Positions 4,188 to 29,275 of a DNA stretch of 64,000 bases are shown in pieces. Both the position numbers and the translations under genes were made by a program. The DNA lies in contig JAHPZA010000006.1 of the NCBI GenBank assembly GCA_019058445.1, forward strand, positions 160,001-224,000, read 5' to 3'. The stretch comes from Promethearchaeota archaeon. Its GTDB lineage: Archaea > Asgardarchaeota > Lokiarchaeia > Sigyniarchaeales > SOKP01. The notes under the pieces are model-generated. The model saw nothing but the letters and a program-made list of their open reading frames with translations. It did not search any database and had not been told where the DNA came from. Position 1 is the stretch's first letter. Each line of letters opens with the position of its first letter.

Positions 4188-6230
4188 TTATATACTATTA
4201 CCCATTTTATAACCTCGAGCAACAGCTTCCATTACCGTTTCTGGTTTACGAGCATCTCCGATTTTCTCTACTTTAATAGTACCTAGTTGCTTGATTTCTT
4301 TATAAAGAGCATCGTTCGGTTCGACCCCGGTAGCATAATAGATATAATCTATATCACTAATTGCGTTTTCTTTACCCGAAGAGTCTGAATAATTTACATA
4401 ATTTTCGCCGATTTCAGTGACTTTTACACTTGTAAGGAATTTCACACCTAAAGCATCGCATTTATCAAGAAGTACCCATTTCGTAGTCCTTCCTAACGCA
4501 GATCCTAATTTTGGTAACATTTCAAGAACGGTAACCTTATTCCTTCCCTTATGCATCATATCTAACGCAATTTGAGGCTCTAAGGCCTTATAGAATGTAA
4601 GAAAATCAAATGCTTCACGGCTTAATGTTCCATATTTTGCAATGTATATTGCTAATTCTATACCAGTGGCTCCGCCTCCTATAATAACATTGTTCTTACC
4701 AACTGGAGCATCACCGCTTAAAGCATCATTTGCCCAATATACATTTGCTCTGTCAATACCGGGAATAGGAGGTTTTATGGGATTTGAACCAGTGGCGACA
4801 AATGCAACGTCAGGATTGAATTCTTTTACTATATCAATAGTGACATTTTGTTGGAAATGTACATTGATGCCGTATTTCTGAATCCAATAGTTATAATTAT
4901 CTATCATACGTTTAAATTCGTTTCTTCCTGGTGGAATCCAGATTATGTTTAATAACCCGCCAATTTTATCATCCTTCTCAAAAATATGAACATCATGTCC
5001 TCTAATTGCCGCTATTCTCGCAGCCTCTAATCCTCCTGCTCCTGCTCCAATAATCATAACTTTTTTCTTTTCTTTCAATGGTTTCAGTTCAGTTCGGGCT
5101 TCATTTCCCGCTCGAGCATTCCTTAAACACGTGACAGGCATCATCCTGAATACCTGGTCAAAGCATCCTTGATTGCAGCCAATACAGTTCATTATATCTC
5201 TTAATTCACCCTTTTGAGCTTTCATTGGCAGATAAGGATCAGCAATTAACCCTCTTCCAATACAAATAGCATCAGCTTTTCCGGCCATTAAAACTTGTTC
5301 GGCGAGCTCAGGGTTGTTAATTCTATTGGAAGAAAATATAGGAATAGATACACGTTTATGAATATTTTCAGCTAGGTATGTATAACATCCTTCTGGAACA
5401 TCCATTGTTAATTGTGGTGTTTTTGTTTCATGCCAACCACCTGTTACGTTGAAATAATCTAAATATTTACCTAATTCTTCTGCAATAACTACTTTTTCCT
5501 TATATGTATTGCTGCCTGGAACAAAATCATCTCCAGAAATTCGATAGCCAAGAGGGATATCGTCTACTTTAGAACGCATTAATTCAATGGTTTCAATCGG
5601 GAATCTTAAACGATTTTCAAGATCGCCCCCATATTTATCAGTTCTCTTGTTAGTTTTTGGGGAACAAAACTGATCGGTTAAATAACCAGCATTTCCGCAA
5701 ATCTCTACTGCATCGAAGCCTGCTTTCTTAGCTCTAATTGTAGCGTCGGCAAAAGCCTCTTGTTCACGCTTTATATCTTCAAGACTCATTTCCTTAGGAG
5801 TGGTCTTACTAAAATTACTATAAACTGCAGAGGGGGCAATAGGTGTTCTGCCAATTATCTGTGGGAATGCGTTTAGGCCTCAATGGTAAATCCATTTCGA
5901 GGAAGCCCCGCCATGGTATAATTGGCAACAGATCTTTACATCATCTCGAGCATTGTGTACGGCTTCAGTTAATTTCTGTAAATCAGGAATAAATTTATCG
6001 TCATCAACTGCAATCATCGATGGTAAACCCTTTGCATAAACGTCTACATAACACCCTCCTACAATTAGCATTCCAGCACCTCCCTTAGCCCTTTCAACGT
6101 AAAAATCTATCAATTTGTCAGTGATAAACCCATTTTTTGCCAAGTTGAGATGCATCGCAGGCATTATAATACGATTAGACACATCCATATCCTTTATTTT
6201 AAAAGGAGTAAATAGTTTAAAGAACTTCAT
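4188..6230 (-). CDS. fadH: 2,4-dienoyl-CoA reductase / OYE-family NADH:flavin oxidoreductase; two exons (6230-5903, 5872-4188), about 670 aa after removing a 30-nt intron
   Basis: ORF 5880-6230 (NRIIMPAM, ERAKGGAG, QLYHGG) and ORF 4188-5789 (AGFDAVEI, NKRTDKYGG, CIGCNQGC, GAGAGG) are in the same frame. Splicing gives QLYHGGAYAFPQIIGRTPIAPSA, matching the family QLxHxGxYA...P.APSA pattern. Confidence 0.85.
5873..5902 (-). other. Putative 30-nt bulge-helix-bulge (BHB) mRNA intron in the fadH-like gene
   Basis: mRNA: GCG[GGGC]UU^C CUCGAAAUGG-AUUUA-CCAUUGAG [GCCU]AA^A CGC. 4-bp central helix, two 3-nt bulges, inner and outer helices; contains the in-frame UGA. Confidence 0.85.
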
Positions 6231-27447: not shown

Positions 27448-27951
27448 TTAAGCACCTCCCTCGTATTCTGGTTTAGCAATCCATCTTTCATACTCATCTT
27501 CAGGTACAAAAAAGAAATCCGTCATTTTACCTTCTCTGTTTTTGGAAAATACCGCTTTAACTCTTCGTCCTTTTTTAACTTTTGAGGGAACTAGATTTTC
27601 TGAAAATATTCCTTGAAATAAAGCAGTGTCAGCTCCATCTAATTTTATAAAACCTATAGAATAGGGTACCGATTTTATAAACGCAGAAGTTGTATACCAA
27701 ACGATAGTGCTAACCTCAATCGTTCCTGTTTGTTTCATTTCAATCCATTCGGTAGGCGAATAACATTCTGAGCAATTAATTCTTGGAGGCATCCATATTT
27801 TCCCGCAATTTGAATTAGTGCATTTAGTTCCTAACAACTTTTTATTGTTCATGACCTCAATAAAGAACTTAGATTGTCCTCCCATCGTGTATTTATAGTT
27901 AATTTTAATTATATCCCTTATTTCATGTGATTGAAAATCTTGCTTGCTCAT
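27448..27951 (-). CDS. DUF35 family Zn-ribbon/OB-fold protein
   Basis: CTNSNCG...PPRINCSEC, KLDGAD, RVKAVF. Confidence 0.88.
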   Translation of the reverse strand: MSKQDFQSHEIRDIIKINYKYTMGGQSKFFIEVMNNKKLLGTKCTNSNCGKIWMPPRINCSECYSPTEWIEMKQTGTIEVSTIVWYTTSAFIKSVPYSIGFIKLDGADTALFQGIFSENLVPSKVKKGRRVKAVFSKNREGKMTDFFFVPEDEYERWIAKPEYEGGA

Positions 27952-29275
27952 GGTTGTTTCAATCCCTCCTCATTCGTCATTACAATAATCGCAGCATATG
28001 CTGCTCCAGGACCTCCAATTGAGTGCGCTATAGCCCTGCCTTTTTCAATTGTTACTTGGTGCTTACCAGCATCTTCTCGAAGTTGTAGTGCTGCTTCTCC
28101 TGTGCTCATAATCCCTGTAGCACCTACAGCGTGACCGCATCCAATCAATCCTCCTGATGGGCAACATGGTACTTCACCATTAATCCATGGCCCTTCTCCT
28201 GGTTTTTCAAAGCTATTTTCAATCCAAGGACCTCCTTCTCCAAAAGGAACAAATCCCAATTCTTCATACGATATAACCTCTTGCCCGCTAAATGCATCAT
28301 GCAGTTCTGCTAAGTCAACTTGTTGCTTTATTTTATTATAATCAAGTCCTGCCATTTTATAAGCTACTTTAGCTGCATTAATATTTGAATATAATCTTCC
28401 CATATCTTCTCTATTACCTATAAAACAGTCAGTATTCGCCGCACCTACACCCGTAATCCAAATTGGTTTTTCAATACCTAATTCCTTAACTTTTTCTTCT
28501 GGTGCTAGAATTAAGGCCGCTGATGCTTCTGAGTAAAGACAACAATCTAACATTTTAAAAGGATAACAAATAATCCTCGAATTCAAGACATCTTCAATTG
28601 TTAAATCCATCGGAGACTGCGCTTTAGGATTAAGCATTGCGTTTCCATGGTTTTTAACGCTAACAATAGCCAAAATTAACTAAACGTTAAAATTTTAAGC
28701 CATATGCTCTTCAGTTGGATTTCCAAATTCCTCAAAATGAGCATTAACCATAGAAACGTAAGAACTAGCTGCCATCATCCCCATAGGATACTCATAAGTC
28801 AAATCTGCTGAATATGCGATGGCATTGAGCACTTCTGGTGTTGTTGTACCTGTTTAAACTTATTAGGGATATCCTAATTGATTTGTTCATCGTAACAATC
28901 GTTACATTTTTCCAGACCAAGACATAGGCATAGGTCTGACAACCCAGAAGCAACTTCAGCATAAGCCATCCTTACAGTATAGCCGCCTGTAGCACCTCCT
29001 GAGGCAATCCGGGTACCTGGCTTATCATTCATCCCGATGTAACTATTAGTAAAAATATCCGGCATGAATTGCCGTTCAAACAGCTCGTTATAAATCCCAT
29101 ACACTGTTGATTCCAAGTCTTTGTGCGTAATTTGTGCTCCGTTCTTATTGGCATCGTCAAGCGCCAATTTTGTCGCGTCATAAGCCAGCTCAAAATAGGT
29201 CTTATCCAAATATCTTGCTCTAAAAGGTGTTATTCCTACACCTATTATCGCTACTTTTCTCACTTTATTTTTCAC
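27948..29275 (-). CDS. Thiolase-like protein in three exons (29275-28883, 28853-28696, 28665-27948), 422 aa after removing two introns
   Basis: N-terminal ORF (VAIIGVG.TPF...GLEK), a 158-nt middle exon (TGTTTPEVLNAIAYSAD...PTEEHMA) and a C-terminal ORF (VSVKNH.NA..NPKA, AELHDAF, PSGGLIGCGHAVGATG). Exons total 1269 nt = 423 codons. Confidence 0.85.
28666..28695 (-). other. Putative 30-nt BHB mRNA intron (thiolase intron 2)
   Basis: AU[GGCU]UA^A AAUUUUAAC-GUUUA-GUUAAUUUU [GGCU]AU^U GU. Contains in-frame UAA and UAG; splicing gives EEHMAYVSVKNH. Confidence 0.75.
28854..28882 (-). other. Putative 29-nt BHB/BHL mRNA intron (thiolase intron 1)
   Basis: [GAAC]AA^A UCAAUUAGG-AUAUC-CCUAAUAA [GUUU]AA^A CAGG. 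Frameshifting and stop-containing; splicing gives DCYDEQTGTTTPEV. Confidence 0.78.

What the first reader, a model, noticed from the sequence alone, without database searches (positions are those of the whole stretch)
5873..5902. Textbook BHB intron in the FadH-like 2,4-dienoyl-CoA reductase
The minus-strand RNA forms outer helix GCG/CGC, central helix GGGC/GCCU, bulges UUC and AAA, and inner stems CUC/GAG plus AAUGG/CCAUU. Canonical cleavage removes 30 nt including the UGA and builds a Tyr codon from both exons (U|AC). The result, HGGAYAFPQ, matches the OYE/FadH QLxHxGxYA motif.
Basis: partly seen in the sequence, partly recalled or inferred. Interest (0 to 1): 0.9.

Follow-up and report, generated by a model that had tools for sequence, protein, structure and literature searches.

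The report
tRNA-type mini-intron in Asgard reductase gene
A 30-base insert shaped like the introns archaea cut out of tRNAs splits a fatty-acid reductase gene of a Loki-type Asgard archaeon, so its mRNA almost certainly has to be spliced, which papers report for only one archaeal coding sequence (cbf5).

Summary

- **The insert.** The minus-strand gene 6230..4188 is a full-length FadH-type 2,4-dienoyl-CoA reductase with one in-frame TGA. More than 100 Asgard homologues are 669-670 aa and lack exactly the 10 codons at 5873-5902. Removing those 30 nt rebuilds a split Tyr codon (T|AC) and the invariant HGGAY[A/T]FPQ.
- **The fold.** The homology-defined ends fall on the canonical cut sites of a bulge-helix-bulge motif. 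The chance of that motif at fixed ends is about 1e-4.
- **Other alleles.** Three more alleles carry an intron at the same nucleotide. They are a ~96%-identical strain and two distant orthologues with 31- and 34-nt introns. One central-helix pair changes compensatorily (G-C to U-A). dN/dS is 0.05-0.07, the same as for intronless pairs.
- **Machinery and context.** EndA and RtcB are encoded. Four other inserts in this genome (thiolase x2, ChlD-like, EF-2 paralogue) show the same register.
- **Limits.** No RNA evidence was found, so splicing is inferred. Structure-only genome scans show no enrichment, so such introns number tens at most.
- **Earlier scan notes.** They report the same kind of mRNA intron in other Asgard genomes. 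In the papers I could search, only cbf5 (coding) and one Haloferax 5'UTR are documented.

The parts
5903..6230 (-). Exon 1 of the FadH-like 2,4-dienoyl-CoA reductase (codons 1-109 plus the first base of the Tyr codon)
   Evidence: ORF 5880..6230. Aligns to residues 1-109 of 669-670-aa homologues. Pfam Oxidored_FMN.
5873..5902 (-). 30-nt BHB-type intron containing the in-frame TGA (5882-5880)
   Evidence: Absent from all intronless orthologues at exactly these bases. Ends coincide with canonical BHB cut sites. Unique sequence in the genome.
4188..5872 (-). Exon 2 (last two bases of the Tyr codon to the stop codon)
   Evidence: Same frame as exon 1 after removing the 30 nt. The 27 conserved codons at 5870-5790 precede the first possible start codon (ATG 5789), so they can only be translated when joined to exon 1.
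5909..5911 (-). Outer helix h, 5' strand (GCG, exon 1); pairs with 5869-5871
   Evidence: Identical in the L044, L125 and L160 alleles.
5905..5908 (-). Central 4-bp helix H, 5' strand (GGGC, exon 1); pairs with 5875-5878
   Evidence: In L044 it is GUGC paired with GCAU, a compensatory change.
5902..5904 (-). 5' bulge UU|C; cut between 5903 and 5902
   Evidence: The cut position equals the homology boundary.
5879..5901 (-). Inner helix h' (CUC/GAG) plus hairpin AAUGG-AUUUA-CCAUU
   Evidence: The hairpin core matches the L125 intron at 14 of 16 positions (counted by eye).
5875..5878 (-). Central helix H, 3' strand (GCCU, intron)
5872..5874 (-). 3' bulge AA|A; cut between 5873 and 5872
   Evidence: The cut position equals the homology boundary. 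This bulge appears in the MFE fold of the window and L044 alleles; the L125 MFE fold also has a 3-nt 3' bulge but uses a different register on the 5' side. The only intron substitution in strain L160 lies here (A to U).
5869..5871 (-). Outer helix h, 3' strand (CGC, exon 2)

Best explanation
Bases 5873-5902 (minus strand) are a bulge-helix-bulge (tRNA-type) micro-intron inside the coding sequence of a FadH-like 2,4-dienoyl-CoA reductase of a Loki-type Asgard archaeon.

Proposed mechanism:
1. In the pre-mRNA, exon 1 (GCG GGGC UU) and exon 2 (A CGC) pair with each other and with the 3' end of the intron (GCCU AA). This forms outer helix / 4-bp helix / two 3-nt bulges / inner hairpin.
2. The archaeal splicing endonuclease EndA cuts after the second base of each bulge.
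3. RtcB joins the exons and rebuilds a Tyr codon (U|AC), giving an mRNA for a normal 670-aa enzyme.
4. Unspliced RNA would end translation at the intron's UGA after 116 residues.

Shown here: the insert, its exact ends, the fold's register, its persistence at the same nucleotide in other lineages under purifying selection, and the enzymes' genes.

Inferred: that cleavage and ligation happen in vivo.
For: 1. Read-through gives 680 aa. The 120 best homologues listed (73-84% identity) are almost all 669-670 aa, and the 15 aligned lack exactly 10 residues.
2. Orthologue DNA reads CAT GGN GGN GCN TAY GCN. The window has GCT T[30 nt]AC GCA, and no alternative boundary is possible.
3. Those boundaries are the canonical BHB cut sites. 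The strict motif has probability about 1e-4 per fixed pair of ends.
4. At homology-defined ends of 10 intron alleles from 5 sites, the 4-bp helix in the EndA register is complete in 9 and 3 of 4 in one. The mirror register gives 0 of 10. Background P = 0.025.
5. Same-site alleles:
   - L160: about 96% nt identity, same intron, its one change lies in the 3' bulge.
   - L044: 31 nt, frameshifting, central helix GUGC/GCAU against GGGC/GCCU, a compensatory change.
   - L125: 34 nt, homologous hairpin, inner helix UUG/CAA against CUC/GAG in the register that bulges G632; the fixed-register score is 2 bp with U-G as first pair.
6. dN/dS is 0.046 (window-L044) and 0.067 (L044-L125), against 0.042-0.044 for window-intronless pairs. 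There is no other lesion in 670 codons.
7. The 27 conserved codons between the intron and the first start codon cannot be translated unless joined to exon 1.
8. EndA (202 aa, both Pfam domains) and RtcB are encoded. Asgard EndA is reported as the broad-specificity (alpha-beta)2 type (PMC5829648).
9. An identical split gene appears in a second assembly, Logan SRR14802574, with 0 mismatches in 6350 nt.
Against: - No RNA-derived sequence lacking the 30 nt was found in the protein collections.
- The BHB conformer is 2.6 kcal/mol above the MFE, which pairs the 5' bulge. Fold energy is not exceptional (z = -1.3).
- Genome-wide, BHB motifs are no commoner than a mirror-geometry control, so structure alone does not single out the site.
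- The L125 allele has a C-A mismatch in the central helix.
- None of 160 other species representatives of the class has the insert, and on the gene tree the intron-bearing alleles need at least 2 gains or losses. The history is therefore patchy and part of it could be recent.
- Only one EndA subunit was detected by Pfam; no beta subunit was found with the two Pfam EndA families searched.
Confidence: 0.88

Rival explanations
1. The gene is a pseudogene inactivated by a small hairpin-forming insertion, and nothing removes the insert.
For: There is an in-frame TGA. The insert is absent from all 160 other species representatives searched. No RNA evidence for removal was found.
Against: - Inserts sit at the identical nucleotide in four alleles from at least three diverged lineages, and both exons are intact in each.
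- dN/dS is 0.05-0.07 with saturated synonymous sites, equal to intronless pairs.
- The ends match BHB cut sites (P about 1e-4).
- A compensatory change occurs in the central helix.
Confidence: 0.05
2. UGA is read as selenocysteine (or otherwise read through), giving a 680-aa enzyme with a 10-residue insertion.
For: The 30 nt keep the frame and hold a single UGA. ARAGORN calls a tRNA-SeC candidate at C1:27020-27126.
Against: - None of the 15 homologues aligned has any residues at this place, let alone Cys or Sec, and nearly all of the 120 listed are 669-670 aa.
- The insertion would split the conserved HxGxY motif next to the FMN site.
- The same-site introns in L044 (31 nt, TAA) and L125 (34 nt, TGA) shift the frame, so read-through cannot rescue them.
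Confidence: 0.02
3. The gene is split and works as two polypeptides: 116 aa plus 533 aa starting from ATG 5789.
For: Gene callers report two ORFs, in three independent assemblies.
Against: - The stretch 5870-5790 has no start codon, yet matches the orthologues' AFPQIIGRTPIAPSAVYSNFSKTTP almost residue for residue.
- The split would delete invariant residues.
- The Tyr codon is divided between the two pieces.
Confidence: 0.02
4. The insert is an assembly or sequencing artefact, or is skipped by the ribosome (translational bypass).
For: None specific. Hairpins can cause assembly errors, and phage T4 gene 60 bypasses 50 nt.
Against: - The same insert is found in a Logan assembly (identical) and in an ENA assembly of a ~96%-identical strain.
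- Bypass cannot join a split codon (T|AC), and there are no matched take-off and landing codons (read).
Confidence: 0.02

Closest known systems
cbf5 pre-mRNA intron of Crenarchaeota (Watanabe 2002; Yoshinari 2006; Yokobori 2009, PMC2738675)
   Same: A BHB motif at the exon-intron junctions inside a protein-coding sequence, presumed EndA cleavage and ligation, and lineage-specific presence and loss.
   Different: - A different gene (a metabolic FadH-like reductase) and a different phylum (Asgard).
- Only 30 nt long, and in frame with a stop codon.
- It is one of several such introns in the same genome.
- Splicing is not yet shown experimentally.
BHB intron in the 5'UTR of Haloferax volcanii HVO_1309 mRNA (PMC7714728)
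   Same: An mRNA substrate of the archaeal splicing endonuclease.
   Different: That intron lies in an untranslated leader. Here the intron interrupts a codon in an active-site motif, so splicing is obligatory for a functional protein.
BHB introns of archaeal tRNA genes, very abundant in some Asgard lineages (PMC11291895; bioRxiv 10.64898/2026.10.13.758758)
   Same: Same motif geometry, same cut positions and same enzymes, with repeated gains and a patchy distribution.
   Different: The host RNA is an mRNA. [quoted passage not shown]
IRE1/RtcB unconventional splicing of HAC1/XBP1 mRNA in eukaryotes
   Same: A small mRNA intron (26 nt in XBP1) removed by a protein endonuclease and joined by RtcB without a spliceosome.
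   Different: A different endonuclease and a different RNA motif (twin stem-loops). It is stress-regulated and shifts the frame. No regulation is known here.

Membership tests
Archaeal BHB (EndA-type) intron | [quoted passage not shown] | tested here: met
   GGGC/GCCU lies between bulges UUC and AAA. The conformer is -11.7 kcal/mol against an MFE of -14.3.
Archaeal BHB (EndA-type) intron | Flanking helices h (exon-exon) and h' (intron) | tested here: met
   h is GCG/CGC (3 bp). h' is CUC/GAG plus a 5-bp hairpin.
Archaeal BHB (EndA-type) intron | Cuts inside the bulges yield a precise, functional junction | tested here: met
   The junction GCT T|AC GCA equals the orthologues' GCN TAY GCN, and the product HGGAYAFPQ equals the family consensus.
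Archaeal BHB (EndA-type) intron | Splicing endonuclease and RNA ligase encoded by the organism | tested here: met
   EndA is at C9:770346-770843 (PF02778 and PF01974, 202-aa ORF). RtcB is at C1:114713-116020.
Archaeal BHB (EndA-type) intron | Structure kept across diverged alleles (covariation) | tested here: met
   - One compensatory central-helix pair (G-C to U-A) in L044.
- Inner-helix changes in L125 that keep pairing.
- The single change in L160 lies in a bulge.
- L125 has one central-helix mismatch.
- The sample is small, four alleles.
Archaeal BHB (EndA-type) intron | Excision shown at RNA level | not testable with these tools
   No near-identical protein lacking the 10 residues was found in the collections. 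No transcriptome is available here.
Selenoprotein gene (UGA = Sec) | UGA aligned with Cys or Sec in homologues | tested here: not met
   Homologues have a 10-residue gap there. The same-site inserts in L044 and L125 shift the frame.
FadH-type 2,4-dienoyl-CoA reductase (OYE FMN domain + Fe-S + FAD/NADPH domain) | Full-length domain architecture and similarity to E. coli FadH | tested here: met
   - Pfam Oxidored_FMN at 5-341 and Pyr_redox_2 at 389-654.
- An intronless homologue (84% identical) matches 1PS9 at E = 6.7e-103 over residues 5-641.
- Substrate specificity was not tested.
Self-splicing group I/II intron or intein | Ribozyme core of hundreds of nucleotides, or an in-frame protein-splicing domain | tested here: not met
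   The insert is only 30 nt and contains a stop codon.

The most novel reading that the evidence does not exclude
The intron is one member of an evolutionarily active population of EndA-spliced micro-introns in the protein-coding genes of this Loki-type genus.
- The introns are gained, lost and even slide between neighbouring sites among congeneric species.
- The exon codons are co-opted as half of the splicing motif.
- This would make the lineage a living prokaryotic model of intron gain and loss in mRNAs on the archaeal side of eukaryogenesis, possibly with splicing used to gate expression of lipid-catabolism genes.
Probability: 0.55. Interest if true: 0.88.

Novelty: new member of a known kind. 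Interest (0 to 1): 0.8.

Why it matters
- **Rarity in the literature.** Papers I could search describe endonuclease-type splicing inside an archaeal coding sequence for one gene only, cbf5 in Crenarchaeota. A 2020 study states this explicitly (PMC7714728).
- **What is new here.** An ordinary metabolic gene of an Asgard archaeon needs the same treatment. It is not alone in its genome: thiolase (two introns), a ChlD-like chelatase subunit and an EF-2 paralogue are also split.
- **Annotation.** Gene callers split or truncate such genes. This one is recorded as 116-aa and 533-aa proteins in public collections. Metabolic reconstructions of Asgard genomes may therefore wrongly score pathways as broken.
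- **Evolution.** The introns differ between congeneric species. That offers a tractable case of intron gain, loss and sliding in mRNAs of the closest prokaryotic relatives of eukaryotes.

Tried and rejected
1. **Structure-only census of the genome.** Strict and relaxed BHB motifs, with and without an ORF-healing criterion, were no commoner than a mirror-geometry control (85,015 against 84,715 hits; 358 against 359; 43 against 48). The only hint was an excess at L = 30 with long inner stems (98 against about 65). I use this as a null density, not as evidence against the site.
2. **Pattern scans.** Exon1-N{26,36}-exon2 searched in genome contigs and metagenome contigs returned only random bacterial hits.
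3. **ARAGORN tRNA introns as a positive control for the cut-site register.** Most calls were dubious. Only tRNA-Tyr and tRNA-Ala fitted at zero shift. I dropped this as a control.
4. **Paralogue-based boundary for the second thiolase intron.** It gave 28675-28704 with no BHB.
5. **G052 match with a stop.** It is a plain in-frame TAA with no insert.
6. **Short fragments P0125, P0131 and P0135.** These are deletions or a tandem duplication, not introns.
7. **fadD-like insert at C6:862873-862902.** I found no canonical BHB that restores the frame. It remains unresolved.
8. **Repeat-family or MITE origin.** The intron sequences are unique in the genome.
9. **Search for RNA-derived spliced products.** I looked for near-identical proteins lacking the 10 residues and found none.

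Full report
**What is at the site**

On the minus strand an ORF starts at 6230 and stops at a TGA at 5882-5880. The same frame stays open from the next codon to 4188. Read through, it gives 680 residues with Pfam Oxidored_FMN (5-341) and Pyr_redox_2 (389-654). An 84%-identical intronless homologue matches E. coli 2,4-dienoyl-CoA reductase FadH (1PS9) at E = 6.7e-103 over its full length. Neighbouring genes are an enoyl-CoA hydratase and ferredoxin-domain proteins.

**The insert is real and its ends are exact**

- The best 120 homologues (Loki-, Hermod-, Hod- and Thor-archaeal, 73-84% identity) are almost all 669-670 aa.
- In alignment A1 the window carries exactly 10 extra residues where all others read HGGAY[A/T]FPQ.
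- At DNA level the orthologues read CAT GGN GGN GCN TAY GCN TTY. The window reads GCT T, then 30 nt, then AC GCA TTC.
- The bases on either side of each end differ, so the boundaries cannot be slid. The insert is 5902..5873 and it splits a Tyr codon as T|AC.

**The fold**

The RNA reads GCG-GGGC-UUC-CUC-GA-AAUGG-AUUUA-CCAUU-GAG-GCCU-AAA-CGC. This is the canonical arrangement: outer helix, 4-bp helix, 3-nt bulge and inner helix on the 5' strand, then inner helix, 4-bp helix, 3-nt bulge and outer helix on the 3' strand. Cutting after the second bulge base on each strand gives exactly the homology-defined ends.

I measured how often such a motif (3 + 4 + 3 pairs, G-U allowed) arises. There are 85,015 hits in 8.0e8 (start, length) pairs of this genome, a density of 1.06e-4. 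A mirror-geometry control gives 84,715. The coincidence at fixed ends is therefore about 1 in 10,000.

The fold energy by itself is unremarkable (z = -1.3). The MFE pairs UUC with GAG, and the BHB conformer lies 2.6 kcal/mol higher. The enzyme would have to capture that conformer.

**Comparative evidence at this site**

None of 160 other species representatives of the class has an interruption here. Short N-terminal fragments in the protein collection led to further alleles:

| Allele | Source | Intron | Notes |
|---|---|---|---|
| L160 | ENA ERZ23498358 | same 30 nt | About 96% nt identity to the window. Its single intron difference lies in the 3' bulge (AAA to AUA). |
| L044 | GCA_030620005.1 | 31 nt at the same T\|AC | 81% aa identity. 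Has a TAA and shifts the frame. Central helix GUGC/GCAU instead of GGGC/GCCU: a synonymous exon change matched by an intron change. Nine-bp inner stem. |
| L125 | ENA ERZ23498365 | 34 nt at the same place | Hairpin core matches the window's at 14 of 16 positions (my count). Inner helix UUG/CAA against CUC/GAG if G632 is bulged; the fixed-register score gives 2 bp. Six-bp outer helix. One C-A mismatch in the central helix. |

- A Logan assembly (SRR14802574) is identical to the window over 6350 nt.
- dN/dS is 0.046 (window-L044) and 0.067 (L044-L125), with synonymous sites saturated. Window against intronless orthologues gives 0.042-0.044.
- On a gene tree L044 and L125 are sisters, while the window groups with intronless congeners. 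At least two gains or losses are needed.

**Why not the rivals**

- **Pseudogene.** It does not fit identical-site inserts in several lineages with intact exons and strong purifying selection.
- **Sec or read-through.** It would place 10 residues where no homologue has any, and it cannot rescue the frameshifting alleles. ARAGORN does call a tRNA-SeC candidate, so the machinery may exist.
- **Two-polypeptide split.** It cannot explain 27 conserved codons (5870-5790) that precede the first available start codon.
- **Artefact.** It is excluded by three independent assemblies.
- **Bypass.** It cannot join a split codon.

**Machinery**

EndA (202 aa, N- and C-terminal Pfam domains) and RtcB are encoded. 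Asgard EndA is described as the (alpha-beta)2 type with the L1 loop that widens specificity (PMC5829648). I did not find a beta subunit with Pfam.

**Context in the same genome**

Structure-only scans show no excess of BHB motifs over the mirror control, so these introns are few. Homology finds more of them:

- **Thiolase, window 27948-29275.** It has a 29-nt insert at 28854-28882, shared with G002 and absent from six of the eight other orthologues aligned. It has a 30-nt insert at 28666-28695, shared with G008 with four differences: two in unpaired positions, one that keeps a pair as U-G and one that creates a new pair. The G005 orthologue has three inserts.
- **ChlD-like gene, C9:269043-269072.** Nine relatives lack exactly these 30 nt, which interrupt MNPEE|GELRPQ.
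- **EF-2 paralogue, C10:684116-684145.** G006 carries a related intron 6 nt further on. Its 3' helix strand has changed from CUGU to CUGA, matching the new exon partner.

Across 10 alleles at these five sites the central helix in the EndA register is complete in nine and 3 of 4 in one. The mirror register gives none. Background is 0.025. For the four G000 sites with unambiguous ends this amounts to about 4e-7.

Paralogue tblastn also shows stop-containing inserts of about 10 aa in an acetyl-CoA synthetase and a fadD-like gene. I did not resolve those.

**Literature and earlier scan notes**

- The library holds cbf5 as the one coding-sequence precedent (PMC2738675; PMC7714728 says so explicitly).
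- It also holds a Haloferax 5'UTR case, and papers on abundant tRNA introns in Asgard (PMC11291895; bioRxiv 10.64898/2026.10.13.758758).
- I found none on Asgard mRNA introns.
- This scan's earlier notes report the same kind of intron in other Asgard genomes. Some cite RNA-derived contigs. I did not test those.

**Verdict**

This is a genuine BHB-type micro-intron in an Asgard metabolic gene, almost certainly removed by EndA and RtcB (confidence 0.88). Splicing itself remains inferred.

Noticed in passing
window 28854-28882 and 28666-28695 (minus strand; thiolase-like gene 27948-29275): The gene has two more micro-introns.
- A 29-nt insert after YDEQ is shared with G002 (2 differences) and absent from six of the eight other orthologues aligned. 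Its outer helix is missing and its ends are ambiguous by -2 to +1.
- A 30-nt insert inside MAY|VSVKN (TA|T) is shared with G008 (4 differences: two in unpaired positions, one U-G wobble, one new pair), with central helix GGCU/GGCU.

   Followed up: yes
G000 C9:269043-269072 (minus): A 30-nt strict BHB insert with a TAG splits MNPEE|GELRPQ of a ChlI/ChlD-type chelatase subunit. Nine relatives lack exactly these bases. More distant relatives (G025, G030, G031, and G008 elsewhere in the gene) also show single stops in this gene.
   Followed up: partly
G000 C10:684116-684145 (minus); L153 (G006): The EF-2 paralogue carries a 30-nt BHB intron (9-bp inner stem). In G006 a related intron sits 6 nt downstream, after UCAGAU instead of ACAGAU. 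Its 3' helix strand has changed from CUGU to CUGA, which looks like intron sliding with compensation. G012 shows stops in both EF-2 paralogues.
   Followed up: partly
L136 (G005, same genus), thiolase orthologue: It has three inserts in one gene: at the two window sites and a third of about 34 nt inside TYE|YPMG.
   Followed up: no
G000 C10:621765-621900 (minus); C6:862873-862902 (minus); C9:775864-775893 (minus): Paralogue alignments show stop-containing inserts of about 10 aa in an acetyl-CoA synthetase (inside GEPIN|PEAW and DTYWQ|TETGG), a fadD-like ligase and another gene. I could not find a frame-restoring canonical BHB for the fadD-like insert.
   Followed up: partly
whole genome G000: ARAGORN finds only 33 tRNA genes in 4.6 Mb (92.6% complete). 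Nineteen are called with introns, and many of those calls are dubious. This suggests many tRNA genes carry non-canonical or multiple introns. There is a tRNA-SeC call at C1:27020-27126.
   Followed up: no
L069 (G052:C512, contig end): A FadH-like homologue reads QLYHSGRY*RPF, with an in-frame TAA replacing one codon and no insert. It could be a nonsense mutation, a sequencing error or recoding.
   Followed up: no
L045, L127 (JGI Ga0366832 / Ga0366824) and L126: FadH orthologues on metagenome contigs carry frameshifting deletions that begin within a few codons of the intron site. One has a 37-nt tandem duplication upstream. These may be assembly errors or real decay.
   Followed up: no
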